Shown: positions 1,158-35,862 of the stretch, piece after piece
How the letters are laid out: each line of letters starts with the position of its first letter
Position numbering within the stretch: the stretch's first letter is position 1
DNA from: a virus
IMG/VR virus record: IMGVR_UViG_3300028589_000003
Location: 1-43,445 of that record
Reading direction: 5' to 3' (one strand)
DNA: 43,445 nt
The notes under the pieces: generated by a model
What the model saw: only the letters and a program-made list of their open reading frames with translations
What the model was told of the DNA's origin: nothing
Database searches by the model: none
Program-made: the position numbers and the translations under genes

Positions 1158-1160
1158 GGT

Positions 1161-1490: not shown

Positions 1491-1495
1491 GTTGT

Positions 1496-4047: not shown

Positions 4048-4536
4048 TCACCGCACCATTTCCGAAGGCGCCTGCTCCCTGGTGTTGATCCTGAAGTCAA
4101 TGTCGGCAGCCTGGCCGGCCAGGTTCTGGAAGGTCAGCACGTAGCTGGTGTTCTTCTTGAGGATCAGCGGCTCATCATCAGGAATCGTGACGGTTGACGT
4201 GCCGGTGGTGGCATTGCCGCGCAGCACGATGCTCGCGAAGTAGGCATTTGGCGTGAACGTGACTCCGGCCTTCATCTGAACCGGTGGCGTTACTGGGCCG
4301 GCCTGGTTCCGATTGTACGTGCGCAGGATGTTGGTACCGCCAGTGAATGCGACCTCATACAGCGAAATGCGTATCTTGTTCTCGCTGCACGTGTAGGTGC
4401 GACGGTCGAACTGGAAGTTGTAGGCGCCGGTGGTGAACCCGACCTGAACAACGGCGTTCTGTGCCACCGCCGTGAACTCATGCTCGTTTGTCCATACAAG
4501 GCCAGAAGCCATGAGTGAATCTTTTCTGTCGTCCAT
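4048..4536 (-). CDS. Hypothetical beta-rich protein (first gene after the early terminator)
   Basis: 162-aa ORF rich in T/N/V/F, consistent with a beta-strand fold. GGGGGAG lies just upstream of the ATG. I recognise no family. Confidence 0.6.
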   Translation of the reverse strand: MDDRKDSLMASGLVWTNEHEFTAVAQNAVVQVGFTTGAYNFQFDRRTYTCSENKIRISLYEVAFTGGTNILRTYNRNQAGPVTPPVQMKAGVTFTPNAYFASIVLRGNATTGTSTVTIPDDEPLILKKNTSYVLTFQNLAGQAADIDFRINTREQAPSEMVR

Positions 4537-4585
4537 ATCTCCCCCTGAAAGTGGTTAAGCGAAGCGCTTTGCGGAGTATGGCAGC

Positions 4586-4623
4586 ACAAAAACAAAACCC
4601 CAGACCTTTCGACCTGGGGTTTT
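4586..4623 (-). terminator. Rho-independent terminator after the ruvC-like gene (bidirectional shape)
   Basis: aaaaccccag-acctttcgac-ctggggtttt gives a 6-bp GC stem extended by A:T pairs. On the minus strand it is followed by TTTTGTTTTTGT. Confidence 0.6.
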
Positions 4624-4708
4624 GCGAACTTCACCGTGAACACCGTTCTGAATCGCTGATGGCGGGGAGTCGGGTGTGGGTGAATCATGCGTTACTTGCT
4701 TTCCGGCG

Positions 4709-5176
4709 TCAAGAGAGCGTCATGCCATGTCTAGCAATCAGGATTGCATCGGCTACTGCTTGGCCTTTGCCCTTCAGATCGAGGATTCGAAGATCAGGGT
4801 AAAGCCTTGCGCAATGCGACCTTGCCGCGTCCTTGTCCTTTCCGATCAGGCCTGCCGATTTCTTCCATGACTGCGGGGTTACGCAGACATATGGAACCTC
4901 TAGCGCCATCAGTACGCCTTCGATGACTCCAGCAGAGTGCCCGAACGAGAACATCGAACTGACACCCTGCCCTGGCATGGCCCCGACCTGCTCCAGAACA
5001 GCCCTGATCCTCTCCCCCTGAAACCTCCTGACGAACTGAGCCACAGCGGAGCCGTTTACGCGGTTTTTCTTGCCTACCATTAGCGTTGGCATTGGTTCGT
5101 GGTGAATCACGCTAAAATCGACCTCCAGAGCGACGAGAGAGCCGCTTAGGCCTGGGTCGATACCTATGGTGATCAC
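4709..5176 (-). CDS. RuvC-like Holliday junction resolvase
   Basis: 155 aa. N-terminal ITIGIDPGLSG (catalytic Asp motif) and C-terminal AVADAILIARHG, typical of the RuvC fold. GTG start overlaps the upstream stop. Confidence 0.8.
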   Translation of the reverse strand: MITIGIDPGLSGSLVALEVDFSVIHHEPMPTLMVGKKNRVNGSAVAQFVRRFQGERIRAVLEQVGAMPGQGVSSMFSFGHSAGVIEGVLMALEVPYVCVTPQSWKKSAGLIGKDKDAARSHCARLYPDLRILDLKGKGQAVADAILIARHGMTLS

Positions 5177-23523: not shown

Positions 23524-25859
23524 CTCGCTGTGGTTGCTCGCCAGAACACACGAACGGTGCCGGCTGCGCCAAAGTTGGCAAGGCTGCCAGTCTTGACGGT
23601 CAGGGTCACCGATGATGCTGTTGGCGTGTTGCTGTTGCAGACGACTGCGGTTGCCCCGAGAGCAGTAGTGTTGACGCTCTCAGTAACAATTGGCGGGTCT
23701 TTAAAGATACCAGATGGGAAAGTGACCACAGCGCTCGCAGAAGCCTGCGAGGTGGTAACAGGGATGTCTACGAAGCCACCGATAGATACACCCGTTACCT
23801 CGGTCGCCGTGTGCACCTGAGCGGCTTCGCCTGGAGCCTCAAAACCGTTCATACTGGTCCGAGCAAATGCTGATCCTCCCGAGTTGGTAACTCGGACAGA
23901 CTCATAGCCTGGCGCAGCTTGGGCGACCTGGGCGCCGTCGAGCTTCACGCGGGCATCGGTCGCGAGGGAGTTGCGTTGGATGATCTTGAACACGGACATC
24001 GCAGCAGGCGCATAAACAACCATGCCAGAGCAATCAAATGTTCCACCGATGGTGTCGGCCGCCGCACTCGAGGTGTTGTTGCCGCCGCAGTCCACCACCC
24101 CACGTGACGCGGCAGCGGGGTTTGTGTCTGCATAGCAGCGAACGCCCGAATAGTCTCGGTCGTAGCCTGTCATTTCAGCGTGATAGAAGCAAATGCCATC
24201 GTCAGCCGCGAACACCCTGCCTTTCACGGTGATGTGGTTACCACCGCCATCAAAGCCGCCGTAGATGTCTCCCTCGAAGGTGAAATATTCAGTGTTGCCG
24301 TGCGTATCAACCGCATGCGCCAACCCTTCGAAGGTAGTAGTTGCTGTTCCTCGGCACACAATATCGCGACATGGAACGCTGCCAATATCGCCATACCCGC
24401 CAGTTGTAATACCGTGACGCGAAGCCGAGAAGTAGCCCTCCATACGCATATGCTGGCAGTTGGAGAAGATCAGGCCGTAGTCATTGCCAGTTCCGGACAT
24501 GAGACCTTGCTCGGCAACTAGGCCTCGGCCCTCACCGTTAAAGCACTTTTCCAGTTCTATAGCAGACGAAGACTGCTTGCTGTAGCCCTTCAGGCCGGTT
24601 ATATCGAAATCGATCAGGCGCTGAGCCCTGACAGCCATCACTGTTGGCAAGGCCTCAGGTGCATTGACCTTGAGCGAGCCTTCCAGCTTGAACTTGCCGC
24701 CGTTCATCTTATAGATGTTCACCGCTGCAGCTGTGTACCCAGCATAAAGAGGCTTGGTCAGGCGAACCTGCGTCGGGCTTGTGACGGCAGCCACACGGCA
24801 ATACTCACCTGCACGGTAGTAGCTGCGGAAGCTGGAGTAGCTGAAGTCGGTTGGGTTGTAGATGACGAATACGTCGCCTGGAGACAACCCGTGCGCGGAT
24901 GTAAACGTAAGGAGGTTTGCCCCCTTGAGATAATTGATGCTGAGCGCTGGCATAGCAGTGAAGCTGCCGCCGCCCAGTCTAACGGCGCAGGAATTCGGGA
25001 AGTTTCCGACTGTAACTGCGGCGCTAGCGTCGAGCACCACATCCCCGAACGTGCGGAGTACTGTCCCGAATGGGAAAGCAAGCTCACCAGTGAGCTGGTA
25101 AGTGCCTTCATTTATCCCGAGAGAACCGCCGCTTGCAGCCCAGGCTTGCAGGCTGGCGAATTGCTCAGGGAATTTCAGGTTGCTGATTCGGTCGCCAACG
25201 GTCCAGCCATCGTGACCCAGCATCCTTGAACCTTTAAGCACATCCAGCTTGTTGGCCAGATCCTGAACAACTCCAATAAATCCATTGGCTCCCGTGAAGA
25301 TGACATTGGCGGAGTTGTTTATTGGGCCCTGACCAGTAGCAAGAATGCCGGCGATGAAATCAGTGGCCCAACGAAGAGTGGCAGCATCCTGATCATTTAC
25401 AGGGTTGGCCACATTGATGATTCTGTGACCTTTCGCATCCCATGTCTGGCCAGTTGGATCAAGCTGCATGGAGTTGTTGGCAACGCCGAGCGCCTGCTGA
25501 ATCAGCATGGTCAATCGGTCAAAAACGTTCTCATGGATCTCAGGGTAAAAGCGCGATTGGTTGATGATATCGGTTGGCTGCGTAACTGGCATAACGCGAA
25601 GAACCGAAAGCGTCTGGCCGGTCGGCGGCGCGACAAGCATAGTCAGTACGCTGACAGGGTTGCCATCCTGCTCAGGCTCTCCCGCGCCGGAAAGCGTGTA
25701 GTTGATCCCGAGCGTCAGAGGCGTAACCAAGAATGTGGTGTTATCTACAAGCGAAGCCTGGATGTCGGAGTTACTGAAGAACCTGAATGGAAGCGGGAAA
25801 ACGGTCGTGGTCCCGTTGCCCGGAAATGATGTGCGGTCTGTGCTGCTGGCTACGGTCAT
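23520..25859 (-). CDS. Tailspike / tail fibre with beta-helix (depolymerase-like) body
   Basis: 779 aa. The N-terminal ~150 aa (FPGNGTTTVFPLPFRF...YTLSG...RLTMLIQQ...DAKGHRIINVANPVNDQDAATLRW) is the conserved podoviral particle-binding fibre/spike head. The remainder is Gly/Asn/Thr/Val-rich, as in right-handed beta-helix spikes. Confidence 0.8.
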   Translation of the reverse strand: MTVASSTDRTSFPGNGTTTVFPLPFRFFSNSDIQASLVDNTTFLVTPLTLGINYTLSGAGEPEQDGNPVSVLTMLVAPPTGQTLSVLRVMPVTQPTDIINQSRFYPEIHENVFDRLTMLIQQALGVANNSMQLDPTGQTWDAKGHRIINVANPVNDQDAATLRWATDFIAGILATGQGPINNSANVIFTGANGFIGVVQDLANKLDVLKGSRMLGHDGWTVGDRISNLKFPEQFASLQAWAASGGSLGINEGTYQLTGELAFPFGTVLRTFGDVVLDASAAVTVGNFPNSCAVRLGGGSFTAMPALSINYLKGANLLTFTSAHGLSPGDVFVIYNPTDFSYSSFRSYYRAGEYCRVAAVTSPTQVRLTKPLYAGYTAAAVNIYKMNGGKFKLEGSLKVNAPEALPTVMAVRAQRLIDFDITGLKGYSKQSSSAIELEKCFNGEGRGLVAEQGLMSGTGNDYGLIFSNCQHMRMEGYFSASRHGITTGGYGDIGSVPCRDIVCRGTATTTFEGLAHAVDTHGNTEYFTFEGDIYGGFDGGGNHITVKGRVFAADDGICFYHAEMTGYDRDYSGVRCYADTNPAAASRGVVDCGGNNTSSAAADTIGGTFDCSGMVVYAPAAMSVFKIIQRNSLATDARVKLDGAQVAQAAPGYESVRVTNSGGSAFARTSMNGFEAPGEAAQVHTATEVTGVSIGGFVDIPVTTSQASASAVVTFPSGIFKDPPIVTESVNTTALGATAVVCNSNTPTASSVTLTVKTGSLANFGAAGTVRVFWRATTAR

Positions 25860-25862
25860 TGC

Positions 25863-26180
25863 TTACCCCCTATGAAGCGTTGTTTTTCGCGGGAGCATAC
25901 GCGCTGCATTGCCCCGCGATTGGATTACGGGAATCATGACCATGATCACGAATGCCGTTGATAGCGCAGACCCTCCAAGGTCCGTGGTGCGGAGCTGCCC
26001 TATGGTGATCAGCGAGTACAAGGCCCATCCAAATGAGCCTCCCGCTAGGCCTATAGCCATGAGACTCACGCCAAATTTGAATCTAGCCTGCGGGTCGTGG
26101 AAGCGACCAAGCAGGATGGCGATCACCAAAAGCGCAACGCTCCGAATGATCACCAACCAAACACCGAGATCAATCTCCAT
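25863..26180 (-). CDS. Membrane protein (105 aa, about 3 TM); holin/antiholin candidate
   Basis: ATG 26180 with GAGGTGA upstream. Product MEIDLGVWLVIIRSVALLVIAILLG...VSLMAIGLAGGSFGWALYSLI...ALSTAFVIMVMIPVI. The longer track start overlaps the previous gene. Confidence 0.5.
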   Translation of the reverse strand: MEIDLGVWLVIIRSVALLVIAILLGRFHDPQARFKFGVSLMAIGLAGGSFGWALYSLITIGQLRTTDLGGSALSTAFVIMVMIPVIQSRGNAARMLPRKTTLHRG

Positions 26181-26556
26181 CCTTTTCACCTCGCTTAGCG
26201 CGCAACGGAAAAATGATGTCGAGAACGGTTTCTGCCCACGGAGGGAAATTCTCTTTCCTTTGGACCACCAGCGCGAACGCCAGAAAGATGAAGACAACCA
26301 GCGCCGACACAGCGGCAGCCCATATCATGCTCTGCGGACTATACGGTGGCCCGTCAGGGTATTTGTAGATCCCCGTGGCGTATCCCATCCCCCACGAAAA
26401 CACCGCCAGCAGGACGCGTCTCAGGCCCTTGCTGGACGATGGGTATGCCAGGTAGAAGAAGCACCCGAACGCAGCGCCTGAGGCTGCGTAAGGATTCATT
26501 GCTACCAGCCCGGCAAATAGTGCGGCAGCTAACCAGCCCCCAAATTGCTCCGTCAT
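26170..26556 (-). CDS. Membrane protein (128 aa, 3-4 TM); holin candidate
   Basis: GGWLAAALFAGLVAM, AAFGCFFYLAY, RRVLLAVFSWGMGYATGI and IWAAAVSALVVFIFLAFALVV are hydrophobic segments. The C-terminus is charged. Confidence 0.5.
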   Translation of the reverse strand: MTEQFGGWLAAALFAGLVAMNPYAASGAAFGCFFYLAYPSSSKGLRRVLLAVFSWGMGYATGIYKYPDGPPYSPQSMIWAAAVSALVVFIFLAFALVVQRKENFPPWAETVLDIIFPLRAKRGEKDGD

Positions 26557-26573
26557 TCCGTTCCCCTCCCAGG

Positions 26574-26584
26574 ATATTGATCAA
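26574..26584 (-). promoter_or_regulatory. TTGATCAATAT motif (minus-strand reading) 17 nt upstream of the ATG at 26556
   Basis: Exact copy of the 11-mer at 4012-4022 with identical spacing to the start codon. A partial copy, TGATCAATAG, spans the giant-gene stop (26611-26620). Confidence 0.3.
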
Positions 26585-26617
26585 ATTTTAACCACTTATC
26601 GATGATGGCACTATTGA

Positions 26618-29600
26618 TCATTTTTTAGGCGGTCCGAAGATGACGCCACGGGTCCAGTCAGTTACGCCTTCTGGCTCTATGTCGCCCTCAGCAACACCGA
26701 TCAGGTACTTGACAGTGCGCTTCGGCTGGGCCACTGGCAGGCCGACCGAGTAGCCGATGGTGTCGATGGCAAGGCCTGCTACCCGTGCCGTATCAACGTC
26801 CTTTCCTTCTGCAGCAGACTTGCCGGCCGCACCTGCCTTGCTCAGCGTGTTGAAGACTTCGCCAATGGGAGTTGCACCCTTGTAGGCCCACCCGCTTTCC
26901 AGGCTGGAGGCCAAATCCCGAACAAGCGGGATGCCGAGCAGCGGATAGGTAGCGATCTTGAGCGAAGCCCAGGCGCGCCAATCTTCGTCTTCCCCCGGCC
27001 CTTGGCCACTGACAAGCGGACCAAGTACGGCAGGAATAGCGATCAAGAACATCGTTCGCTCGAAGACGTTCAAGTAATCGGCTGCACCTTTGGCGCTGGA
27101 GAAGGCGCGCTTGATGTCCACCGTGCGGTTATACAGCAGGTTGAAGTAGCTGTAGACGATGGTCAGGGCGCGCATTAGGCCGTCCTTGCGCTGGACTGCA
27201 GCTAGGTCTTTCGGGCCGGCTGCCATCTGCGACAGGCGCACTGCGCGGTCGCCGGCCGCAATCGCCTGCTCGCCATCAAGCCCGCTATCCAGGCCATGCC
27301 GGTATCCAGCAATCCAAGTCGGATAATCGACCATCGCCTGAATCACACCGATGTGCTTAAAGGCCAGTCGCTGCACGAACGAAAGCCAATCACTCTTGCC
27401 GCTGATCTTCTTCAGGACGCCGCGCATGTCGCGGTCAAGGTTGTCCACACGGAAGCGCATTTCGCTGGACATCTGGTTGACCATTTCGATTGAGTCGAAC
27501 GGGTGTCGAATGAACTCCTGCATGCCCTGGAAGATGTAGCGCTTGCCGCCGACCTTGCTGAAGTATTCGAAGGACTGCGAGTAGCCGAGGATCTGCTGCA
27601 GGCCAGTTGTGGCGCTGAAGCCCATGAAGCCAACAGCCAGGTTTGCGCGCAGGCGCTCGGCACCACGGGTCCATGCGTCGATTCCCTTCTGGCTGTCCAG
27701 CACCATGTCGTTCGCAACGCCTTGCAGCCATGGATTGAACTGGTTTGCTACGGCGGGGCCAAGTGTGTCTATCAGCATCTGCTTGATCTGCTTGTCGCCG
27801 ATGATCTTGGCAGCATCCCTGATGGCCTTGCGGTGCGTCAGGTCGTGGATGACTTGGCCAAGGTGCGAGGCGATGATCTCAACGTCCAGCTGGATGGGAG
27901 CAGCGAACGAATCAACACGGGCCTTGGTGTGGCCCTTGGGCGTAGTTGCCCTAGCGTAGCCTTGTTCGAACAGACCACCTTCGTTGCCTAGCTCATTCTG
28001 CACGCCGGCATAAGCACTGCTGCTGGTGTCGTACACAAGGGGCCAGTAGCCGCCACGGAAGGTGCCGTGCTGGGTCACTACAGGTGTTGCCTCGACCTTT
28101 TCAGGAGGAACGCCGTGCAGGTCCTTTTCCAGCTGCACGATCGATGGCCACAGTTCCTCTACCAGATCCCACATCGACTGCACGAACTCCCAATCGCGCT
28201 GCGTCAGGTTGCCAGTGATCTCGTTCAGCTGCTGCTCAGTCCATGCCTTGCCGTTGTGCCCGCCGTCGAGCAGCTTCTTGCGGTTGCTGGCGTTGCCGGT
28301 ATTCAGTGCAGCCGAGAGGATGGCGTTCATGGTAAGCGGCTGCCCAAGGCTCTGAATGTGGATCTTCTGCTGCATGACCTTGGCGCCGCGTTCCTTTGTG
28401 TAGGCGTCCACTATCTCGGTCATCTTGATTGCGATGTCTCGGTTCAGCTGATCCTTGGCGCCCTGGGCTTCAACGAACGGCTGGAAGAAGGCCGTCGACC
28501 ACGGGCCGTCAACCTGTCCACCGTCCAGCCACTCAACAATCTGCTCCATCTTGATCAGGGCCGAACTCAGTTCGCCGGCCTGATCGCCAATTCGCTCAAG
28601 CAGGCCGCGAATGTTCTTGTCGATTGGCGGCGGCGTGCGCTTCTCAAGGTTCGCGTATCCGGCGCGGATCAGGTTGTTCTTGGCCTCTTCGAAGTCCTTC
28701 AGGCGCTTGTTCGCCAGCAGCTTGTTCTTGGTGCTGGCCAAGTGGTTGACGTTGGCTACGAACTCGTCAAGTTCCTGCAGCTGGTCAAGGCTCAGGTCCT
28801 TGTAATTCACGCGCTGGCTGGTGTTCAGCACAAACTCAGGAACGATTGGCTCGTTGCCCATGGCCAGCTGGTCGGCGTACCAGGCTGCAAAGGACTTGCG
28901 TTTGTCGATCTCGCGCAGACTGACCTTGCGGAATTCGTACTGCTCCATCACCGCGTCGATCTGGTCAAGGTAGTCGTGCCCTGCCTTACCCAGGCGCTCG
29001 CGGGTGCTGGCCTTGTTGTACTTGAGCATGCGGGCGGTAATGTCCTCCACCTGCTCGCGGGCCTTGCGCGCTTCCCGGTACATGTAGAAGTTCAGCAGCT
29101 GGCGCTGCTTGGCCTCGTAGGCGGTTTCAAGGTCGCCATTGACGAAGGCCTCATACGACTGGCGGCTGGCCTTGGCCTCAGCGCGCTGGAACTCTGCCGG
29201 CTGGATGTCACGCACTTTGCGCTGGAGCATGACCCTACGTGCGGCTTCCTTGAGGATCTGCTGGGTAGTGATGTTTTTGCGATTGCCCACCTGAGCCAAG
29301 CGGCGCAACTCCTTCTGCAGTACCTCAGCACGGCGCTCGTTGTGGGTGGCTTCGATGGCGCGCTCTGCGGCCTCGCCAGTCGACTTTGGCCCGTGGCGCT
29401 CAAGCATGCGCTGATCAGTCTCGCGCTTGATGACTTGGCTGCGGGGTTCGGCTCCGAGCAAGGCCTTTACCAGCTGATCGCCTGAGTCATAGCCGAGCAT
29501 TGGCCCGACAATGTCCAGGGGCTGGCCGTCTCGGGCATGAGTGAACGCCAGCTTGCGAGTTGCCTTGGCGCCGTAGCGCTCTGCCAGTTCTCCGCTGTTG

Positions 29601-32600
29601 AGCTTGATGCTCAGTTCTGTGCCGTCGGGCATCTGGCCCTTGCGCAGAGCCTTGAGTGCTGCGTACTCGGGCATCGTGTCGACTTCTTCCGTTACCTCGT
29701 CTCGCACCCTGGAGGATTCTTCGCGCCACCACTTCGAACGCCGGCGCTCTTCCTCCCGGACGATCTCTTCTTCAATGGAATCGCGGGCGTCTGCGTGGGC
29801 CAGGTCGATGCTGTTCTGATACGCGGCGAATTCCTGATCCGTCATGCCAGCAGCGGTCGCATCAGCGAACAGAGGGATGGCGTTCGTCACCTGTTCGGCA
29901 GCGGTGATCTGGTCATCAGTGGCCACAAGGCGGTCAAAAACCCGGCGCATATCATCAGTCAGAGTGACGTTCAGCCGACGCAAGTCCTTGTAGATCTGGA
30001 TCAGCCAGCGCTTGAAGCGGGCGAATGCGCCGGCCAGTTCAGGGCTTGGGGCTTTTCCTTCGGCGACATATTTCTCAAATCCTCTAGCAAACTGCTCGTG
30101 AAATTCAGCTCTCTGATCGTCTGTCATTCTGAGCCATGTTTCTAGTAAACTGCCCTCTACCTTCAAATCAGAGGAACTAGAAATATGCCTGTCACTATTA
30201 CCTGCGTTCGCTGCGGATCCTTGAGAGATATCCCCCCCTCTAGGGTTAGGTACACCAAGAGCTTTTGCGGAAGAACTTGCTACAACCTCTACAAGGTTGA
30301 GCAAAGCTCTGGCTCCGTCGACCGTAATGGATACACCCTGATCAGCATCAACGGTAAAAGCGTCCTTGAGCATAGATGGATCATGGAGAACCACATCGGT
30401 CGGAAGCTTTTGCGATCCGAGCACATCCACCACATCAACGGGCAACGATCTGATAACAGAATCGAGAATCTTGTTATTACTGATCGAGCTAGCCACGTGA
30501 TCGAACACGCGGAGGAGAGGTTCAGCACTGATCAGGCCGCTTCCCTCAGGGCGCAAGGACTCACGTACAAGCAGGTCGCGGATAAGCTTGGCGTCAAGCT
30601 CTGCACCGTTTGGTGGAGACTGAATAGAGGCCTGAATGCCAAACCAGCGAAGCAGTGACTCCACGTCGTCTCTGATTTGTTGAGGGGCATTCTGCTTTGC
30701 TGCTAGATCAGTTATTACCTCAAGATAGTAGTGACCCAGTTCGTGGAGAACAGTGGACAGGTCGCGCTTGTCGCCCAAGGAGATCTGGAATCGGCGGTCA
30801 CCCTCGCCGCGTGGAGTGAAGGTGATGAAGCCCCGGGCATCGCCGTTGTCGCTCTGGTTCAGCCGGCGCTGTCCGGCAACAGCCTGCGAGTTCATTTCAG
30901 TGCCATTCCAGCGGACGATTGCTTGGTCAGATGGCGTATCAGCGGTTTGCTCAGGGCTGGCGGCTTGGCGCTCTTCTGCCGTCATGGTGCGGCGGCGCTC
31001 TGTGTTACGGGCCTCCACCTCGCCGGCCAGGCGGCGATACGTCGTTTCAGGGTTGCCGATGTCGCGCATTACTTGCTCGGCATCTGCGGCGCGTTGCTCG
31101 ATCTGTGGCAGATCAGTGGCCAAGGCATCCTGCATCTGTTGTTCGGTTGGCGTGCGCTCGAAGGTATCGATGAATGCCTGCTGGCCAGCTTCATCGCCAA
31201 GGCTATCGATCTCCCGGCGAAGGTCCGCGACCTGACGCCAGTAGTCACGATCAGCCATTGCCTGGTCCTTGTCGGCGCGCATGGCATCCTCTGAGCCGCC
31301 AGTTGCGAAACCCTCGCGCACCTGAATGGCGTGCTGGACCTCATGCATCACAACGTCAATGGCGGGCGAATCAGCGCTGTACAGGGTTGGGTCGCCGATC
31401 TCGATGTATGATCCGACGAAGCCACGCCCTGGCTGAGAAACGAACATCCCGCCAGAGCGGCGGGCGGGGTTCACTCGGATCTGGACCTGCGCCAGCTCAG
31501 GGTACGCGGCGAACAGTGCCGGGTGATTTAGCGCCTCGCCAAGCATTACGCCATCGACCTCGGCGTCATCAAGCCAGTCGTTGACAGGGGCGAACTGGGC
31601 TTGGCTATCGTCAATCTCGAATCGCCACTTGCCATCGGCGCCCTGCGCCCATCCAGTTTCGCGGCGCACCTGCTCGGCGTTGTCGCCAGCCGCAATGCGC
31701 TGTTCAGCATCGGCCAGCGAAGGCATGTCAGCGGTCCAAGCTGTCTGGCCGGCGAATTGGTCAAGGCGACGGCCCTGCTGCGGGCCAGCCTGATCGGCGG
31801 TGAAGGTCAGCGGGAACTGCTGGCGGATCTGCTCCAGGGCTTGGCCAGTGCGCTCGGAGAGGTTGCTCAGTACGGACAGGTGCACGCTGGCGTACTGCTC
31901 GGCATCGGCGCGGCGATACCCGGACGCCACAAGGTCATCGACCACTTCACGATAGGCATTGGTTTCTGGTGAATTCTGCTGGACGATCTTGCTCAGATCA
32001 TCAAGCTGAGCCTCTTGGTCGGCGGTCCAGGTTTCAACATCGGCAGGGCTCATGCCATCAGCCTGGGTGCGGATGCTCTGGCCAAGATCCTGATGGTAGT
32101 CAGCGAAGACGCGCAGATAATCGGCCGTCTTGATCGCCACGCTGCCGCCACGCGCAGAAGCGTCAGCGAATTGTTCGGTCATGCCAGGGATCGACAGCAT
32201 CAGCTCTGGCAGATCGGCCTTGCCATCCTGATTCAGGCGGGTCAGCGCCTCGGCTGGAATCCACAGGGTTTCCATCGGCGTATCGGCAAGCTGGGCCTTG
32301 GCGATATCGCCGAACGTATCAGCCTCGCGGCCACGGGTCTTGCTACCCAGGGAGGCGTCGACCATTTCATCCAGGGACATCTGGCCTTCGCGGGTTTCGC
32401 GTGCACGGCGCAGGCCGTCGCCAATACCTTCGATCAATCGACGGTTGCTGAAGGCAAGGACATCGAGCGACGACATGCCGGCACCGGCCACGGCCTCGAG
32501 CAGAACTTCGCCAGCATCGACTTCGCCTTCAGCAAGGAGCTGGCCGGCTGCCTCACTGGCGCCTTCACCGATACCTTGCACTGGGAACTGAACGGCCAGG

Positions 32601-33763
32601 TTGGCCAGTTCGCGCTGTGTCCGGGTGAGCTGACGACCAGCGATTCGCGATGGTGCCAGCAGGTGACTGGCAAGGCCCATGCTCACAAGGTCAACAGCGG
32701 TCGTGCCAGCGGCTTTTAGGCTTGCCCTGCGCTCTGCATCATCCATGAGCTTATCGTCTTGCAGAGCGCGCAATACGGCCTTTGGATCGTTCTGGTTTAC
32801 CTTTGCCTCGCGCAGGACATCCAGCAGCTTGGATTGGTACTCACCTGAGAACCCGATGCCTGCTGCTGCAACCGGTCCGGCGATGGCGCCAGCGGCGAGC
32901 ATTTCAGCGCTGGTTGCAGCGGCGCCTACGGATGTGCGGAAGGCATAGCCAGGGTTCTCGGCAAGTGCTTCAGCAGTGGCAGATAGGCTTCCACGGCCAA
33001 GAGATTCAAGTTCTGCTGCTCGGCGTGCGCCTGGGTCAACTGGCATATCAGAAAGCGTCTGCTCGTCCTGTGCGGCGCGCTGCAGTTGTTCAGTCTGCCG
33101 GCCAACAAGGCGCTCACGCATCTGCTGGCGCTGCTCTGGCGTGGCTTGCAGGTAGTCGAAGCCAAACCCAGTAGGGTTATCGCCTCCAGGGAATGGAAGC
33201 TCACCGGCCTCAGCAGCCCGGGCAACCTCAAGGTCTACGCGGTCGAACTGCGCCTGAATGTCATTGAGTCGCGCAGCATCAGCGACACGGCCAGCCTGGC
33301 GCTGTGCAACCCACTGCTGGCGAACGGCGCCGAACAGCTTCTCGCCTGTGCTCTGCTGGTTGAACCGCGTATCACTGGCCGCGCCTTCGATGCGTACCAG
33401 TTGATCAAGGTCATCCTGAGCGACCGCCGCAAGGTTGCCGTCACGTAGTGCATTGGCCGTCTTGCGGTAATTGTCGTAGATGCCCGCGTACTGGTTTCCG
33501 CGCAGCAGCTGGTTCATTCGGTCGGCGTTGTCATGCAGCACCTTGGCCGGCACGCCGCTGTAGCGAGACACAGCCGTAGCTTTGGCATAAGCATCGGGGC
33601 TGATATTCGAAACCGTCTCCATGCTGTGCACGAAGTCTTGGCTTTGCGACTGCGCGAAATCACGGGCCGCATCAGCCAGCTGCGTGGTCTTGGACGGCGG
33701 CGTTTCAGGCTGCGGAATCGCGCTTGAATCAACCGGTTTCAGCAACTCAGGAACTTGGATCAT
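26618..33763 (-). CDS. Giant polyvalent virion/ejection protein (2381 aa) with two zincin-like HExxH motifs
   Basis: Single uninterrupted ORF. ATGA overlap with the upstream SLT gene. Contains VVMHEVQHAIQVREGFATGG...YRRLAGEVEARNTERR and LHELGHYYLEV...HEQFARGFEKYVAEGKAPSPEL blocks known from phage/plasmid polyvalent proteins. The hydrophobic C-terminal region fits a DNA-ejection role. Confidence 0.85.
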   Translation of the reverse strand: MIQVPELLKPVDSSAIPQPETPPSKTTQLADAARDFAQSQSQDFVHSMETVSNISPDAYAKATAVSRYSGVPAKVLHDNADRMNQLLRGNQYAGIYDNYRKTANALRDGNLAAVAQDDLDQLVRIEGAASDTRFNQQSTGEKLFGAVRQQWVAQRQAGRVADAARLNDIQAQFDRVDLEVARAAEAGELPFPGGDNPTGFGFDYLQATPEQRQQMRERLVGRQTEQLQRAAQDEQTLSDMPVDPGARRAAELESLGRGSLSATAEALAENPGYAFRTSVGAAATSAEMLAAGAIAGPVAAAGIGFSGEYQSKLLDVLREAKVNQNDPKAVLRALQDDKLMDDAERRASLKAAGTTAVDLVSMGLASHLLAPSRIAGRQLTRTQRELANLAVQFPVQGIGEGASEAAGQLLAEGEVDAGEVLLEAVAGAGMSSLDVLAFSNRRLIEGIGDGLRRARETREGQMSLDEMVDASLGSKTRGREADTFGDIAKAQLADTPMETLWIPAEALTRLNQDGKADLPELMLSIPGMTEQFADASARGGSVAIKTADYLRVFADYHQDLGQSIRTQADGMSPADVETWTADQEAQLDDLSKIVQQNSPETNAYREVVDDLVASGYRRADAEQYASVHLSVLSNLSERTGQALEQIRQQFPLTFTADQAGPQQGRRLDQFAGQTAWTADMPSLADAEQRIAAGDNAEQVRRETGWAQGADGKWRFEIDDSQAQFAPVNDWLDDAEVDGVMLGEALNHPALFAAYPELAQVQIRVNPARRSGGMFVSQPGRGFVGSYIEIGDPTLYSADSPAIDVVMHEVQHAIQVREGFATGGSEDAMRADKDQAMADRDYWRQVADLRREIDSLGDEAGQQAFIDTFERTPTEQQMQDALATDLPQIEQRAADAEQVMRDIGNPETTYRRLAGEVEARNTERRRTMTAEERQAASPEQTADTPSDQAIVRWNGTEMNSQAVAGQRRLNQSDNGDARGFITFTPRGEGDRRFQISLGDKRDLSTVLHELGHYYLEVITDLAAKQNAPQQIRDDVESLLRWFGIQASIQSPPNGAELDAKLIRDLLVRESLRPEGSGLISAEPLLRVFDHVASSISNNKILDSVIRSLPVDVVDVLGSQKLPTDVVLHDPSMLKDAFTVDADQGVSITVDGARALLNLVEVVASSSAKALGVPNPRGGDISQGSAANAGNSDRHISSSSDLKVEGSLLETWLRMTDDQRAEFHEQFARGFEKYVAEGKAPSPELAGAFARFKRWLIQIYKDLRRLNVTLTDDMRRVFDRLVATDDQITAAEQVTNAIPLFADATAAGMTDQEFAAYQNSIDLAHADARDSIEEEIVREEERRRSKWWREESSRVRDEVTEEVDTMPEYAALKALRKGQMPDGTELSIKLNSGELAERYGAKATRKLAFTHARDGQPLDIVGPMLGYDSGDQLVKALLGAEPRSQVIKRETDQRMLERHGPKSTGEAAERAIEATHNERRAEVLQKELRRLAQVGNRKNITTQQILKEAARRVMLQRKVRDIQPAEFQRAEAKASRQSYEAFVNGDLETAYEAKQRQLLNFYMYREARKAREQVEDITARMLKYNKASTRERLGKAGHDYLDQIDAVMEQYEFRKVSLREIDKRKSFAAWYADQLAMGNEPIVPEFVLNTSQRVNYKDLSLDQLQELDEFVANVNHLASTKNKLLANKRLKDFEEAKNNLIRAGYANLEKRTPPPIDKNIRGLLERIGDQAGELSSALIKMEQIVEWLDGGQVDGPWSTAFFQPFVEAQGAKDQLNRDIAIKMTEIVDAYTKERGAKVMQQKIHIQSLGQPLTMNAILSAALNTGNASNRKKLLDGGHNGKAWTEQQLNEITGNLTQRDWEFVQSMWDLVEELWPSIVQLEKDLHGVPPEKVEATPVVTQHGTFRGGYWPLVYDTSSSAYAGVQNELGNEGGLFEQGYARATTPKGHTKARVDSFAAPIQLDVEIIASHLGQVIHDLTHRKAIRDAAKIIGDKQIKQMLIDTLGPAVANQFNPWLQGVANDMVLDSQKGIDAWTRGAERLRANLAVGFMGFSATTGLQQILGYSQSFEYFSKVGGKRYIFQGMQEFIRHPFDSIEMVNQMSSEMRFRVDNLDRDMRGVLKKISGKSDWLSFVQRLAFKHIGVIQAMVDYPTWIAGYRHGLDSGLDGEQAIAAGDRAVRLSQMAAGPKDLAAVQRKDGLMRALTIVYSYFNLLYNRTVDIKRAFSSAKGAADYLNVFERTMFLIAIPAVLGPLVSGQGPGEDEDWRAWASLKIATYPLLGIPLVRDLASSLESGWAYKGATPIGEVFNTLSKAGAAGKSAAEGKDVDTARVAGLAIDTIGYSVGLPVAQPKRTVKYLIGVAEGDIEPEGVTDWTRGVIFGPPKK
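30055..30760. mobile_element. Homing-endonuclease insertion with putative co-converted flanks inside the giant gene
   Basis: AT-rich tract in a GC-rich gene. The flanking giant-gene codons switch to rare AGA/ATA/CTA/GTA/CAA/TTT/AAA usage (for example atgacagacgatcagagagctgaatttcacgagcagtttgctagaggatttgagaaatat). The central part encodes the HNH ORF on the opposite strand. Confidence 0.55.
30185..30658 (+). CDS. HNH homing endonuclease (zinc ribbon + HNH + C-terminal HTH)
   Basis: 157 aa. EHRWIMENHIGRKLLRSEHIHHINGQRSDNRIENLVITDRASH is a canonical HNH_3-type motif. N-terminal CVRCG...FCGRTC. C-terminal LTYKQVADKLGVKLCTVWWRL HTH. GAGGAA RBS. Lies entirely antisense within ORF 26618..33763. Confidence 0.85.
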   Translation: MPVTITCVRCGSLRDIPPSRVRYTKSFCGRTCYNLYKVEQSSGSVDRNGYTLISINGKSVLEHRWIMENHIGRKLLRSEHIHHINGQRSDNRIENLVITDRASHVIEHAEERFSTDQAASLRAQGLTYKQVADKLGVKLCTVWWRLNRGLNAKPAKQ

Positions 33764-35862
33764 TGGACGCTTACCCCCAGGCCGGAAATTCGTTCCAGAT
33801 ATGCTGCCACAATGTTTTCCTCGCTCGCCGATTGTCCGGCAGCGCGCAGGGCCTGCACGATGCGCAGGCGCTCTTGAGCCGGGATGTCGGCGATCTTGAT
33901 GTCACCCTTGTCGACGTAGGCCTTGTCCAGCTTCTCAGGCGTGACCTCCCACAGCTTCAGAGAATCCTCAGAGAACAGGCCTGTGCCGCTAAGGCGCACA
34001 TCAAGCAACAGTTGATCGGCGATCTGCTTTGATTCAGTCGCCGTTGGCTGCTTGCCAGTCGCTTGGAAGATGGCGTCCTTTCGAGCTTGGTAGGCGGCGC
34101 GGAACTGCTCTTGACGCTCAAGGTTTTTTGGCTCGTTAGCATCTTTGTTGTTGCCGACCTTGATGCCGGCCATTGCCATGACGCCCCGAAGCTGTCGCTC
34201 TTCAGCCTTCACCGAGCCCTGGCCCGACAGATCACCCTGCTTGACCTTCTGGTACATGGTCGTCACGCGCTTGAAGTCGGCATTGTTCAGGTACGGGCGC
34301 ACATCACGCTCAAGGCTCAATTCCTCAAGCTGCGCTGGCGGCATGTCGATGAATTCCTGCAGCTTGGCGTAATCGGTCTTCGGCTCTGTTCCCTTGCGAC
34401 GGTGTTCGTCCATCTTCTGGAGCTTGACCTGATCGTCTGCAGTCAGCTGATCCAGCATGTTCGGCGGTACCGCGTTGAAGCCGCGCTGCAGAACGACTTG
34501 AGCCGCCTGGTCATAGGCGGCTTTCTGTTCCAGCTGTTGGGCCTTGTACAGATCGTCTACGCGATCCTGGGCGTACTTGCGCGTCTTGGGGTCGTTGATC
34601 TTGTTGATCTGCTGAGTTGCCGCTGCGTAGCGCGCAGATGCCGGCTCTCCACCTACCAGCTGGCCAACGATCTTGCTTGTGTAGTCGCGGGTCTCTTGGT
34701 ACGGGATCTTGTTGATGAAGTCCTGATTGCTGATCTCACCGGTGCGCGGGTCGCCATACTCCTTGACCCATTTATCCACAGCCCCTGGCCCGGCGTTGTA
34801 GGCGGCAACAGCCAAGGTCTCGTTGCCACCATACTTGCCCAGCATCTTGTTCAGGTACTGGGTTCCGAGCGCCATGTTGTACTGAGGGTCAGCAGTAAGG
34901 CGCTCTTCGCTGTACGGGATGTTTAGCTCTGCGGCCATTTCCTTAGCGGTTTCTGGCATCAGCTGCATCAGACCCTTGGCGCCCTTTGGCGATACTGCAG
35001 TAGGGTCACCAGAGCTTTCGGCCTGGATGATCAAGTTTGGGAGTGCCTGCGAGCCGATGCTTCCGCTCGCCCACACGCTGGCGCCGATCTGAGAGCCAAG
35101 CTGCTGGCGCACGCTGGTAGAGAGCATCTTGCTGATCTTGTACTGGTCATCCGGGATCATGTACCCGGACGAGGCTGCGAAGTACTGCTGAGCCTTCAGG
35201 GGATCATCCACGGCCATACGGCTGATCACATCGCTGGCCATGCTGCTGTTGAACTTCTGGATGTTCTGCTGAACAGCCTCTTGAGGGAGGCCCTTGCGAG
35301 CTCCATTCGCGGCGATGATGCGCGCCCCCTTGTTCTGGTAGTACGCAACCTGCTGAGGATCGTTGAAGTATGCTGTAGCGCCTTGTGTGGCAGCTTGAAG
35401 GGATGCTGCATCGGTCTGATCGTAAAACGACTGGCGTTCGCCGTATTCGTAGCGATTCAGTTCAGCGCTCAGGCTCTGGCGCTGGCCGGCAGTGATCTGC
35501 TTCCACCTGGCCTTCTGACGGTCGTTGGTCAGCGAGTTTCCGATAGCGTCGGCCTGCTGGTCGTAAAGACTGATCGTCTGATTCGTGATGTCCAAGGCGT
35601 TCTGACCCTTGCGGGTGTACACACCGTCCTGCTCGTTGAACATCGTGTTGAGCTTCCAGTTGCTCAGCTGCGTCTCGGCGTTGATCAGTGCGGCGGTGTC
35701 GGCGTCCTCTTGGGACTTCTGGAAGATCTGGCCGGCAGCCCTGATTCCTACCTGAGCCAGATCGGATCCTGTGTTATCCACAGGCGTAGCCTGCACCTGA
35801 GGAGTACCAATGCCACGGCTTCGAACCTGAGGACCGCCAAGAGTTGGGACTTGAACAGCCAT
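33760..35862 (-). CDS. Internal virion protein with lytic transglycosylase (SLT) domain
   Basis: 700 aa. AESSGDPTAVSPKGAKGLMQLMPETA...AAYNAGPGAVDKW is the SLT catalytic signature. AAGGAGG RBS. Confidence 0.85.
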   Translation of the reverse strand: MAVQVPTLGGPQVRSRGIGTPQVQATPVDNTGSDLAQVGIRAAGQIFQKSQEDADTAALINAETQLSNWKLNTMFNEQDGVYTRKGQNALDITNQTISLYDQQADAIGNSLTNDRQKARWKQITAGQRQSLSAELNRYEYGERQSFYDQTDAASLQAATQGATAYFNDPQQVAYYQNKGARIIAANGARKGLPQEAVQQNIQKFNSSMASDVISRMAVDDPLKAQQYFAASSGYMIPDDQYKISKMLSTSVRQQLGSQIGASVWASGSIGSQALPNLIIQAESSGDPTAVSPKGAKGLMQLMPETAKEMAAELNIPYSEERLTADPQYNMALGTQYLNKMLGKYGGNETLAVAAYNAGPGAVDKWVKEYGDPRTGEISNQDFINKIPYQETRDYTSKIVGQLVGGEPASARYAAATQQINKINDPKTRKYAQDRVDDLYKAQQLEQKAAYDQAAQVVLQRGFNAVPPNMLDQLTADDQVKLQKMDEHRRKGTEPKTDYAKLQEFIDMPPAQLEELSLERDVRPYLNNADFKRVTTMYQKVKQGDLSGQGSVKAEERQLRGVMAMAGIKVGNNKDANEPKNLERQEQFRAAYQARKDAIFQATGKQPTATESKQIADQLLLDVRLSGTGLFSEDSLKLWEVTPEKLDKAYVDKGDIKIADIPAQERLRIVQALRAAGQSASEENIVAAYLERISGLGVSVQ

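What the first reader, a model, noticed from the sequence alone, without database searches (positions are those of the whole stretch)
30055..30760. HNH homing-endonuclease gene embedded antisense and codon-on-codon inside the 2381-aa virion polyvalent-protein ORF without breaking it
Seen directly: a well-formed HNH gene (30185-30658, +) lies wholly inside the minus-strand ORF 26618-33763, yet that ORF has no stop across it.

The two frames use exactly the same triplets; both have low coordinate = 2 mod 3. Antisense stops could therefore only come from sense TTA, CTA or TCA codons. None of the HNH gene's 13 Leu or 13 Ser codons is one of these.

The insertion splits a block that, from my recollection of homologous polyvalent proteins, is normally contiguous: HELGHYYLEV...LLRWFGIQ | about 165 aa of shadow-like sequence | ETWLRMTDDQRAEFHEQFARGFEKYVAEGKAPS. 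The 3' end of the HNH ORF (AKPAKQ*) is the antisense of the conserved SLLRWFG.

On both sides, about 90-100 nt of genuine giant-gene coding sequence switches to AT-rich rare codons (AGA, ATA, CTA, GTA, CAA, TTT). This is what co-conversion of flanks from a lower-GC donor during homing would leave.

This arrangement does not fit the usual categories. It is not a free-standing intergenic endonuclease gene. It is not an intein, because the strand is wrong and there are no splice-junction residues. If it is an intron, the endonuclease gene is antisense. Either the virion protein carries a roughly 165-aa translated passenger whose only constraint is to stay stop-free, or an unrecognised splicing element is present.
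Basis: partly seen in the sequence, partly recalled or inferred. Interest (0 to 1): 0.8.

Follow-up and report, generated by a model that had tools for sequence, protein, structure and literature searches.

The report
Antisense hidden HNH homing gene
A selfish HNH homing-endonuclease gene sits backwards inside a phage's giant virion-protein gene, which apparently reads straight through it with no intron or intein, and the same trick recurs in at least 175 clusters of mostly giant phage proteins.

Summary
A 157-aa HNH_3 + HTH gene (30185-30658, +) lies inside the 2381-aa polyvalent virion-protein ORF (26618-33763, -). The two ORFs use the same triplets, and the giant ORF stays open and in frame.

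The closest phage, Pseudomonas phage AF, and 80 other homologues lack the roughly 160-codon insert. The two flanks carry a foreign allele. They have the worst codon usage in the gene and are only 67-70% identical to AF, against 89% elsewhere. This fits import together with the endonuclease gene.

No intron or intein signature was found.

Three other phage contigs carry a homologous, intact HNH gene at the same site, in the same orientation and phase. Substitution patterns show that the HNH frame is the selected one; the host-frame "shadow" peptide is only kept free of stops. A search with the shadow peptide found 175 protein clusters, mostly giant proteins. All nine that I checked at DNA level encode an intact antisense HNH.

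The stop-free antisense frame is not statistically remarkable in this GC-rich window alone (P about 0.05-0.26).

The closest precedent is the same-strand "ShiLan domain" hidden HNH (2025); antisense endonuclease genes are also known inside inteins. I rate this a new variant of a known kind. Translation through the insert and endonuclease activity are inferred, not shown.

The parts
26618..33763 (-). Giant polyvalent (internal virion / ejection) protein ORF, 2381 aa, unbroken across the insert
   Evidence: ORF. (LPD22 1e-24, LPD23 3.6e-23). (phrog_9880 match in two stretches, the second resuming at residue 1207). (orthologue of phage AF gp16: 2136 identical residues of AF's 2213).
30185..30658 (+). 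HNH homing-endonuclease gene, 157 aa: N-terminal CxxC...C...C zinc ribbon, HNH_3 core (EHIHHING...DNRIENL...SH), C-terminal HTH. It is antisense to the giant ORF and codon-on-codon with it. Its last 8 codons and its stop overlie the host codons for SLLRWFGIQ.
   Evidence: the residues H82, H83, N85, D90, N91 and N95 are invariant in the alignment. AF2 mean pLDDT 83; best PDB fold match is I-HmuI (1u3e), probability 0.99, E 0.03.
30155..30631 (.). The inserted element proper, about 477 nt (159 host-frame codons of 'shadow' peptide). It lies between host WFGIQ (30632-30646) and GSLLETW (30134-30154). It holds only the SD and the HNH coding sequence.
   Evidence: gap against AF. (empty alleles such as WFGIQPAEGKTQLQTW...). 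(AF2 pLDDT 35-74 for the insert, above 90 for the flanking helices).
30056..30154 (-). C-side flank of host coding sequence (KVEGSLLETWLRMTDDQRAEFHEQFARGFEKYVAEG). It is an imported 'long-type' allele, AT-rich with rare codons, and lies directly upstream of the HNH start on the + strand.
   Evidence: codon score -1.80, GC3 0.37; lowest in the gene. (70.5% identity to AF over the 44 alignable nt, against 88.8% outside). (allele type).
30632..30752 (-). N-side flank of host coding sequence (LEVITDLAAKQNAPQQIRDDVESLLRWFGIQ), an imported allele
   Evidence: codon score -1.40, GC3 0.43. (66.7% identity to AF over 90 nt; the minimum of 210 outside windows is 77.8%).
30170..30175 (+). Shine-Dalgarno-like AGAGGA, 9 nt before the HNH ATG
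   Evidence: Read directly from the sequence. A similar AGAGG precedes the TTG start of the same-site homologue in L213.
30132..30190 (+). Predicted hairpin in the HNH leader. The outer stem (30132-30146 / 30176-30190, 13 of 15 bp) pairs the AUG. An inner stem pairs CCUCU with the SD AGAGG. This is a possible translational brake.
   Evidence: inverted repeat I4. (MFE structure of the + strand RNA). The function is inferred only.

Best explanation
This is an intron-less, intein-less homing element. It is a compact cassette, about 477 nt, made of a ribosome-binding site and an HNH_3/HTH endonuclease gene. It is inserted backwards into a loop between two helices of the HExxH...HEQFARGFE domain of the giant polyvalent virion protein.

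The endonuclease ORF contains none of the three codons (TTA, CTA, TCA) that read as stops on the opposite strand in the same triplet phase, and its length preserves the host frame. The host ribosome therefore reads straight through. The virion protein then carries a passenger peptide of about 160 aa that has no constraint of its own except being stop-free.

The endonuclease, made from a + strand transcript, is inferred to nick or cut insert-free alleles of the same gene in co-infecting phages. Repair from the occupied allele copies in the cassette together with about 100 nt of donor coding sequence on each side. This is how an otherwise AF-like gene came to carry a foreign, AT-rich patch at 30056-30752.

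What is shown:
- the anatomy;
- absence of the insert from relatives;
- the foreign flanks;
- the lack of intron or intein signatures;
- recurrence of the arrangement, and purifying selection on the HNH frame across copies.

What is inferred:
- translation through the insert;
- endonuclease activity and its target site;
- transcription of the + strand.
For: Identity. HNH_3 and HTH_23 both score above their Pfam cut-offs, and 13 PHROG HNH families match. The catalytic motif columns are invariant. The best fold match is the homing endonuclease I-HmuI.

Insert against empty sites. AF gp16 and 80 IMG/VR loci have a contiguous domain.

Co-conversion. The flanks are 67-70% identical to AF, against 89% elsewhere. 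They are more divergent than any of 210 control windows, and they carry the 'long' WFGI...TW..M(T/S)..QR..HEQ allele in an AF-type gene. Their codon usage is the worst in the gene.

No splicing element.
- Rfam gives no hit at E<=10 on either strand of 29800-31000, and nothing in the whole window.
- Rfam gives nothing in four related loci, L003-L005 and L127.
- There is no Hint/intein domain.
- Apart from a 30-nt leader that holds the SD, the insert is entirely HNH coding sequence, which leaves no room for a ribozyme core.

Recurrence at the same site. L212, L213 and L214 carry intact 153-156-aa HNH_3 genes at the same site, orientation and phase.

Which frame is selected. Across the four copies, HNH amino-acid identity is 44-54% and shadow identity is 28-42%. 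Nucleotide identity by HNH codon position runs pos2 > pos1 > pos3 in 5 of 6 pairs.

Recurrence elsewhere.
- The shadow peptide finds 175 clusters at E<=1e-3. Of the 150 listed, 119 are at least 1000 aa.
- All nine fetched contigs (L212-L220), plus L003, L004, L005 and L127, encode an intact antisense codon-on-codon HNH. Some have GC of only 0.39-0.43, where chance openness is about 1e-6 to 1e-9.
- In an unbiased set of 101 HNH relatives, antisense stop counts are bimodal: 0 in 19, and 2-16 (mostly 4-16) in nearly all the rest.

Structure. The AF2 model places the insert between two confidently modelled helices.
Against: - No expression data of any kind are available.
- No sigma-70-like promoter was found on the + strand anywhere in 25800-34000, so how the HNH gene is transcribed is unknown.
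- The stop-free antisense frame has P of only about 0.05-0.26 for this window alone. The selection argument therefore rests on relatives.
- No close relative (>60% identity) of this particular HNH exists in any collection searched. Purifying selection on this copy itself, and its donor, therefore cannot be shown.
- The recipient AF-type allele differs from the donor type at the insertion site, so plain homologous recombination during co-infection could have moved the patch without endonuclease action.
- The minus-strand RNA of the insert folds better than shuffles (z = -4.0). This is unexplained.
- The 175 shadow hits were found as parts of called proteins, so that set is biased towards read-through cases.
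Confidence: 0.75

Rival explanations
1. The element is a fossil. The HNH gene once homed into this site but is no longer expressed or active in this phage. The insert persists only because it is harmless to the giant protein.
For: There is no recognisable promoter on the + strand. The start codon and SD are predicted to be paired in a hairpin. No close relative exists that would show recent spread. HNH third-position GC (0.65) is close to the host's (0.71), which suggests long residence.
Against: The ORF is full length with an ATG, an SD and every conserved motif column intact. The flanks are still un-ameliorated (GC3 0.37-0.43), which argues for recent import. Across same-site copies the HNH frame is under purifying selection. 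Low, tightly repressed expression is normal for homing endonucleases (PMC2988022).
Confidence: 0.12
2. The insert is removed from the giant-gene mRNA by an unrecognised self-splicing or host-assisted RNA element, that is, an intron whose endonuclease gene is antisense. In that case the open host frame would be incidental.
For: Antisense endonuclease genes occur in some nuclear group I introns (my own knowledge, not checked here). The minus-strand RNA of the insert has MFE z = -4.0 against shuffles.
Against: No Rfam intron family matches at E<=10 on either strand, in the whole window or in related loci. Apart from a 30-nt leader, the insert is all HNH coding sequence. An intron needs neither an in-frame length nor a stop-free frame. 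Yet all four same-site copies and nine further sampled copies keep both, including AT-rich ones where this is about 1e-6 to 1e-9 by chance.
Confidence: 0.06
3. The arrangement is domesticated. Either the HNH nuclease now serves the phage (for example in DNA packaging or in competition between phages), or the shadow peptide has become a useful linker in the polyvalent protein. Either way it would no longer be a purely selfish element.
For: HNH proteins are used by some phage packaging machines (PMC3592412). The arrangement is maintained in many lineages. Polyvalent proteins are strings of effector domains joined by linkers (Pfam LPD families).
Against: The distribution is sporadic: the closest relative AF and 80 homologues lack the insert. 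Shadow sequences evolve faster than the HNH frame and are conserved only as its mirror image. Many different insertion sites are used. The AF2 model gives the shadow low confidence.
Confidence: 0.05
4. The + strand ORF is a chance 'shadow' ORF of a GC-rich gene and not a real gene.
For: GC-rich genes often have long open antisense frames. Several such ORFs of more than 150 aa overlap the giant gene on the + strand.
Against: There are significant matches to HNH_3 and HTH models and to many PHROG HNH families. Free-standing homologues exist at 35-46% identity. The segment is absent from AF. The local GC drops to 0.41-0.52.
Confidence: 0.01

Closest known systems
ShiLan domain: hidden out-of-frame HNH insertion in mycobacteriophage DNA methylases (Arsenault, Gosselin & Gogarten 2025, Genes 16:178, PMC11855218)
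   Same: It is an insertion inside a protein-coding gene that is in frame and stop-free in the host frame. It has no detectable intron or intein. It hides a zinc-ribbon HNH endonuclease in a non-host frame, and its distribution is sporadic and homing-like. The endonuclease stop lies at or near the edge of the insert. The HNH proteins are homologous: the best tblastn hits of the window HNH in cultured phages are exactly these methylase genes (39% identity, E 1e-17 to 5e-18). In ShiLan gp65 the match lies in the third frame of the gene.
   Different: There the HNH is on the same strand, in the +3 frame; here it is on the opposite strand, codon-on-codon. There the host gene is a non-essential methylase; here it is a giant polyvalent virion protein. 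The paper mentions no antisense case. Here the arrangement is seen in at least 175 protein clusters and at many sites.
Non-canonical inteins with the homing endonuclease encoded on the antisense strand (cited as Gorbalenya 1998 and Gogarten et al. 2002 in bioRxiv 10.1101/2025.01.02.630785)
   Same: The host ORF reads through the antisense of an endonuclease gene, so the host-frame peptide there is a meaningless mirror image that must stay stop-free.
   Different: In those cases Hint splicing domains flank the region and excise it from the protein. The endonucleases reported there are LAGLIDADG or VSR-like. The window has no Hint domain and no room for one, so the passenger presumably stays in the protein.
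Free-standing phage HNH/GIY-YIG homing endonucleases and 'genes in pieces' (T4 mobE, seg genes; Aeromonas phage nrdA split by mobE: PMC2988022, PMC2790892, PMC3045599)
   Same: Intron-less homing with co-conversion of flanking markers. A compact endonuclease cassette with its own RBS. Expression kept low.
   Different: Those elements sit between genes or split the host gene into two separately translated pieces. Here the host ORF is neither split nor interrupted.
Group I intron-encoded HNH endonuclease I-HmuI (PDB 1u3e)
   Same: Best structural match of the predicted 157-aa protein (probability 0.99). Same HNH core plus DNA-binding extension.
   Different: I-HmuI is encoded in the sense orientation within a self-splicing intron. 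No intron is detectable here. The fold match is weak in global terms (TM 0.35, E 0.03).

Membership tests
HNH homing endonuclease (Pfam HNH_3, I-HmuI-like) | HNH_3 domain above the curated threshold, with the catalytic His...Asn...His motif intact | tested here: met
   HNH_3 scores 35.6 bits against a cut-off of 24.8. The aligned residues H82, H83, N85, D90, N91 and N95 are invariant, and H104 is nearly invariant.
HNH homing endonuclease (Pfam HNH_3, I-HmuI-like) | An appended sequence-specific DNA-binding module | tested here: met
   HTH_23 scores 25.6 bits against a cut-off of 24.6 at residues 118-144. An N-terminal CxxC...C...C ribbon is visible in the sequence.
HNH homing endonuclease (Pfam HNH_3, I-HmuI-like) | Fold similarity to a characterised homing HNH enzyme | tested here: inconclusive
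   The top PDB hit is I-HmuI (1u3e) with probability 0.99, but E is 0.033 and TM is 0.35. No PDB hit was found by sequence.
HNH homing endonuclease (Pfam HNH_3, I-HmuI-like) | Presence/absence polymorphism at a fixed site, with co-converted flanks | tested here: met
   The insert is absent in AF and in 80 homologues. It is present at the same site in L212-L214. The flanks are a foreign allele.
HNH homing endonuclease (Pfam HNH_3, I-HmuI-like) | Site-specific cleavage of the insert-free allele and biased inheritance | not testable with these tools
   This needs purified protein and phage crosses.
Hidden-HNH in-frame insertion element (ShiLan-domain type) | The insert keeps the host ORF in frame and stop-free | tested here: met
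   The 2381-aa ORF is unbroken. It is 168 codons longer than AF gp16, a whole number of codons, with one 8-residue segment of AF replaced. There are no TTA, CTA or TCA codons in the HNH ORF.
Hidden-HNH in-frame insertion element (ShiLan-domain type) | The endonuclease is encoded in a frame other than the host frame, within the insert | tested here: met
   It is antisense and codon-on-codon. This differs from ShiLan, where the HNH is on the same strand in the third frame (PMC11855218).
Hidden-HNH in-frame insertion element (ShiLan-domain type) | No self-splicing intron and no intein domains | tested here: met
   Rfam at E<=10 gives no hit. There is no Hint/intein Pfam hit in the giant protein. 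The insert does not end in His-Asn, and the residue that follows it is Gly or Glu rather than Cys/Ser/Thr.
Hidden-HNH in-frame insertion element (ShiLan-domain type) | Homology of the hidden endonuclease to the ShiLan HNH | tested here: met
   tblastn gives 39% identity over residues 3-111, E 1e-17, to ShiLan gp65 and to many related methylase genes.
Group I / group II intron | Match to a ribozyme covariance model | tested here: not met
   No Rfam family matched within the insert at E<=10 on either strand of 29800-31000. Nothing matched at gathering threshold in the window or in L003-L005 and L127.
Intein | Hint splicing domain and junction residues in the host frame | tested here: not met
   No Hint domain was found. 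The insert is fully accounted for by the antisense of the HNH ORF. AF2 gives no confident fold for the insert.
Large polyvalent protein of phages (Pfam LPD families) | A giant multi-domain protein carrying LPD-type domains, in the virion-protein module | tested here: met
   LPD22 and LPD23 match. The gene is orthologous to AF gp16, which lies between the internal virion proteins and the holin/tail-spike genes.

The most novel reading that the evidence does not exclude
The window holds one member of a large, apparently undescribed class of homing elements. These are HNH genes that have been purged of TTA, CTA and TCA so that their antisense strand is translatable. That lets them colonise protein-coding genes backwards, above all the giant polyvalent virion-protein genes of phages and at many different sites, with no intron or intein. 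The host simply makes a protein that carries the mirror-image peptide. Gene callers report only the giant ORF, so these endonuclease genes are missing from the protein annotations of the nine fetched contigs (L212-L220). This would be a third general way, beside self-splicing elements and intergenic residence, for homing endonuclease genes to live inside genomes.
Probability: 0.6. Interest if true: 0.8.

Novelty: new variant of a known kind. Interest (0 to 1): 0.7.

Why it matters
Homing endonuclease genes are usually thought to survive inside essential genes only by riding on self-splicing introns or inteins. Otherwise they stay between genes. One exception has been described, the same-strand ShiLan domain of 2025.

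This case shows an antisense version in a structural virion protein. The comparative data suggest it is common: 175 clusters, mostly giant proteins, at many insertion sites.

If translation through the insert is confirmed, four things follow.
- Selfish DNA can persist by being translatable rather than removable.
- Giant polyvalent proteins tolerate passenger segments of about 160 aa.
- Automated annotation misses a whole set of nuclease genes.
- Apparent "domains of unknown function" in giant phage proteins can be mirror images of genes on the other strand.

It also offers compact, possibly site-specific nicking enzymes and a tractable test system: this phage and the insert-free phage AF.

Tried and rejected
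1. Group I/II intron. Rfam was run at E<=10 on 29800-31000, at gathering threshold on the whole window, and on four related loci. It found nothing relevant.

2. Intein. There is no Hint domain and no suitable junction residues.

3. Looking for a close relative or donor of this HNH. I searched the 5.8-billion-protein search, IMG/VR, JGI metagenomes and GTDB genomes. The best full-length identity was 40-47%, so dN/dS on this copy and identification of the donor were impossible.

4. Searching with flanks plus insert as a protein query. This returned only insert-free homologues. The insert-bearing relatives appeared only when the shadow peptide alone was searched against the representative library.

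5. Sigma-70 promoter scans of 29700-31100 and 25800-34000. Both gave zero sites, so transcription of the HNH gene remains unexplained.

6. Testing whether the L005/L127 insertion site is homologous to the window's. The hhalign result was only E 0.026 over 31 columns, which is inconclusive.

7. PDB sequence search with the HNH protein. It gave no meaningful hit.

8. Chance as an explanation of the open antisense frame. It cannot be rejected for the window alone (P 0.05-0.26). It is rejected for the family.

9. Short repeats. A 13-nt direct repeat (30083/30141) and a 13-nt inverted repeat at the patch borders (30056/30769) are about what chance gives, so I did not pursue them.
Full report
**1. 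The observation**

The ORF list shows a 2381-aa ORF on the minus strand (26618-33763) and a 157-aa ORF on the plus strand (30185-30658) wholly inside it. Both have low coordinate = 2 mod 3, so they use the same triplets.

The plus-strand protein carries a zinc ribbon, the motif EHIHHING...DNRIENL...SH, and a C-terminal helix-turn-helix. It scores above the curated Pfam thresholds for HNH_3 (35.6 bits against 24.8) and HTH_23 (25.6 against 24.6). It also matches 13 PHROG families annotated as HNH endonuclease. An AlphaFold model (mean pLDDT 83) has the homing endonuclease I-HmuI as its best PDB match (probability 0.99, E 0.03, TM 0.35).

The giant protein carries LPD22 and LPD23. Its match to phrog_9880 is in two stretches, and the second resumes at residue 1207, the C-terminal edge of the insert. 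GC falls from about 0.62 to 0.41-0.52 over 30050-30750.

**2. It is an insertion**

The closest phage is Pseudomonas phage AF (89% nt identity). Its gp16 is 2213 aa and reads ...DDVSTIRAWLG-AEEGDPIT-TEQHEQFARGFE. The window reads ...DDVESLLRWFGIQ-[about 160 aa]-LLETWLRMTDDQRAEFHEQFARGFE.

Eighty further IMG/VR loci encoding this domain are all contiguous. They fall into two allele types: an AF-like short type, and a long type WFG[VI]xDLxTWxxM(T/S)L..QR..HEQFARGFE. Some long-type alleles have a longer linker, for example WFGIQPAEGKTQLQTW.

The window's flanks are of the long type, inside a gene that is otherwise AF-like (2136 of AF's 2213 residues are identical). Measured against these empty sites, the insert proper is about 30155-30631.

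**3. The flanks**

The two 30-codon flanks have the lowest synonymous-codon scores of all windows in the gene: -1.40 and -1.80, against -0.915 +/- 0.166. No outside window is as low. Their GC3 is 0.43 and 0.37, against 0.71.

Nucleotide identity to AF is 66.7% and 70.5% in the flanks, against 88.8% on either side. The lowest of 210 control windows is 77.8%.

The patch 30056-30752 is therefore foreign DNA that arrived with the endonuclease gene. Its ends lie in the most conserved motif-coding stretches (HELGHYYLEV and HEQFARGFE...GKAPS). This is what co-conversion during homing, or recombination anchored on conserved sequence, would leave.

**4. The open antisense frame**

The HNH ORF has 13 Leu and 13 Ser codons and no TTA, CTA or TCA. 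The other two antisense phases of the insert hold 5 and 18 stops.

For this GC-rich sequence alone this is not remarkable. P is 0.26 under the giant gene's codon usage and 0.05 under the ORF's own position-specific composition.

**5. No splicing element**

Rfam at E<=10 on both strands of 29800-31000 gives only three chance-level snoRNA/sRNA hits, all outside the insert. At gathering threshold the whole window gives nothing. Four related loci also give nothing. The giant protein has no Hint/intein domain, and the junction residues do not suit an intein.

Apart from a 30-nt leader holding the SD AGAGGA (30170-30175), the insert is entirely HNH coding sequence. That leaves no room for a ribozyme core.

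One point is unexplained: the minus-strand RNA folds better than shuffles (z = -4.0). The plus strand gives z = -2.0.

**6. Relatives at the same site**

Searching the shadow peptide (the host-frame translation of the insert) against 1.84 billion representative proteins gave 175 hits at E<=1e-3. Of the 150 listed, 119 are at least 1000 aa and 85 at least 2000 aa, with the match internal.

Three of them (P0142, P0143, P0198; loci L212-L214) have the insert at the same site...WFGI(K/T)G-[shadow]-...(T/V)W..M(T/S)LEEKRP.HEQ.ARGFE. On the opposite strand, codon-on-codon, each encodes an intact HNH_3 + HTH protein of 153-156 aa.

Across the four copies:
- HNH amino-acid identity is 44-54%, and shadow identity is only 28-42%.
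- Nucleotide identity by HNH codon position runs pos2 > pos1 > pos3 in five of six pairs.

The HNH frame is therefore the one under purifying selection. The host-frame peptide is a passenger.

**7. Relatives at other sites**

Six further sampled hits (L215-L220, GC 0.41-0.64) and four loci found independently by tblastn (L003, L004, L005, L127) all encode an intact antisense codon-on-codon HNH. Where a domain could be assigned, their hosts are polyvalent proteins: InPase, MuF_C, ART-PolyVal, PBECR5, LPD1, LPD3, LPD38, LPD39 (and the gene tables). L005 and L004 gave no diagnostic Pfam hit.

Insertion sites differ but recur. Examples are just upstream of ADLSSFLHExGHFFLEV, around WFGDSKVVDxxGKPLVVYHG, and inside YDxPL..Q..V..ALGL|ATG..Y.AL.

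In AT-rich members the open antisense frame cannot be chance. Under a mononucleotide model, L005 (288 codons, GC 0.39) gives P about 3e-9 and L219 (200 codons, GC 0.41) gives P about 3e-6.

In a set of 101 distinct HNH relatives collected without regard to context, the number of antisense same-phase stops is bimodal. It is 0 in 19 ORFs, 1 in four, and 2-16 (mostly 4-16) in the rest, even at GC 0.25-0.37.

In all nine fetched contigs, the gene tables list only the giant ORF over the element and not the HNH gene.

**8. Structure**

An AlphaFold model of the domain with its insert gives pLDDT above 90 for the flanking helices (residues 48-68 and 74-86; then 252-281 and 287-309). The insert gets pLDDT 35-74. 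This places the passenger in a loop between two helices of the HExxH domain.

**9. Mechanism**

The best-supported reading is an intron-less, intein-less homing element. Its endonuclease gene is inserted backwards and is translatable on its antisense strand, so the giant protein is made with a mirror-image passenger of about 160 aa.

The same-triplet phase is the cheapest way to keep both frames open. Only three sense codons are forbidden, and each has synonymous alternatives.

Translation through the insert, endonuclease activity, the target site and plus-strand transcription are all inferred. No sigma-70-like promoter was found. A predicted hairpin (30132-30190) pairs both the SD and the AUG. 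This resembles the translational repression described for T4 endonucleases (PMC2988022), but it is untested here.

**10. What is known**

The closest precedent is the ShiLan domain (PMC11855218). It is an in-frame, stop-free insertion in mycobacteriophage DNA methylases that hides a same-strand, third-frame HNH and has no intron or intein. That paper contains none of the words antisense, reverse, opposite or complement.

The window's HNH is homologous to those hidden HNHs: 39% identity, E about 1e-17. They are its best hits among cultured phages.

Antisense endonuclease genes are known inside non-canonical inteins, where protein splicing removes the mirror peptide (bioRxiv 10.1101/2025.01.02.630785).

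Literature searches for an antisense, intein-less HNH in virion or polyvalent proteins found nothing. The library lacks most subscription journals, so absence is not proof.

**11. Verdict**

Of its two alternatives, the translated passenger is favoured.

This is a new variant of a known kind, and evidently one member of a widespread set of elements that annotation pipelines overlook. Confidence in the mechanism as stated is 0.75. The main rivals are an inactive relic (0.12), an unrecognised RNA-level removal (0.06) and domestication (0.05).

Noticed in passing
L198, L027, L202, L136/L139/L140, L147, L160/L161, L163, L191, L204, L037 (HNH matches as listed): Many free-standing-looking HNH_3 genes have zero stops in the antisense same-triplet frame, including very AT-rich ones (GC 0.25-0.37). 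There the open antisense frame is only about 20-100 nt longer than the HNH ORF on each side, giving 'mirror ORFs' of 160-230 aa. The other two antisense phases of the same ORFs carry 4-18 stops. In L198 the mirror ORF starts with what looks like the N-terminus of another gene. Possible reasons are a host gene broken or spliced there, or an ORF kept open to avoid polarity.
   Followed up: partly
L031, L032, L034, L035 (for example L032 3253-5685 minus strand; HNH 4449-5111 plus strand): A terminase large subunit (Terminase_6N split in two) contains an intein-like insert: C|KVGTLIQT... at the start, ...LINKN|C at the end, and a weak Hint_2 hit below cut-off. The middle of the insert is the antisense, in a different phase, of an HNH_3 + HTH gene (28.4 bits). 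This would be an intein whose HNH endonuclease is encoded on the opposite strand. The reported antisense intein endonucleases are LAGLIDADG or VSR-like.
   Followed up: partly
L023 / L175 (573-aa ORF at L023 5450-7168, minus strand): An N6_N4 DNA methyltransferase ORF is split by an insert whose opposite strand encodes an HNH_3 relative, in a different phase from the window's. This is an antisense counterpart of the ShiLan-type methylase insertions.
   Followed up: partly
L036 295-1893 (minus strand) and 475-1644 (plus strand): A TnpB-like ORF (OrfB_IS605 plus the Cas12f1-like TNB domain) has an N-terminal extension that is the stop-free antisense of an HNH_3-containing ORF.
   Followed up: no
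L044 (Mycobacterium phage ShiLan, NC_041988) 2501-2854 within gp65 at 693-3575: The best hits of the window HNH among cultured phages lie inside annotated DNA methyltransferase genes of 32 mycobacteriophage records. They are on the same strand but in the third frame. This is the published ShiLan-domain hidden HNH, so the window's endonuclease belongs to the same wider HNH lineage.
   Followed up: yes
window 30132-30190 (+): A hairpin is predicted in the HNH leader. The outer stem pairs the AUG, and an inner stem (CCUCU/AGAGG) pairs the Shine-Dalgarno sequence. A weak -10-like TAAACT (30146-30151) lies inside it. A transcript starting there would free the start codon, while read-through transcripts would hide it.
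   Followed up: partly
window 30083-30095 and 30141-30153; 30056-30068 and 30769-30781: There is a 13-nt direct repeat, TCTAGCAAACTGC / TCTAGTAAACTGC. One copy lies in the HEQFARGFE exon flank and the other at the edge of the insert. There is also a 13-nt inverted repeat at the two outer borders of the imported patch. Both are about what chance gives in 900 nt.
   Followed up: no
window 30130-30660 (-): The minus-strand (giant-gene sense) RNA of the insert has a predicted folding energy 4 sd below dinucleotide shuffles. The plus strand is only 2 sd below. No known RNA family matches.
   Followed up: partly
window 25800-34000: No sigma-70-like promoter match occurs on either strand across the whole 8-kb giant-gene region (0 found, 2.0 expected from shuffles).
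   Followed up: no
L219 14255-14695: The gene directly downstream of a 4564-aa polyvalent protein that carries an antisense HNH has faint HNH_3 and weak AP2 Pfam hits. It may be a second, free-standing endonuclease gene. This would put embedded and free-standing forms side by side.
   Followed up: no
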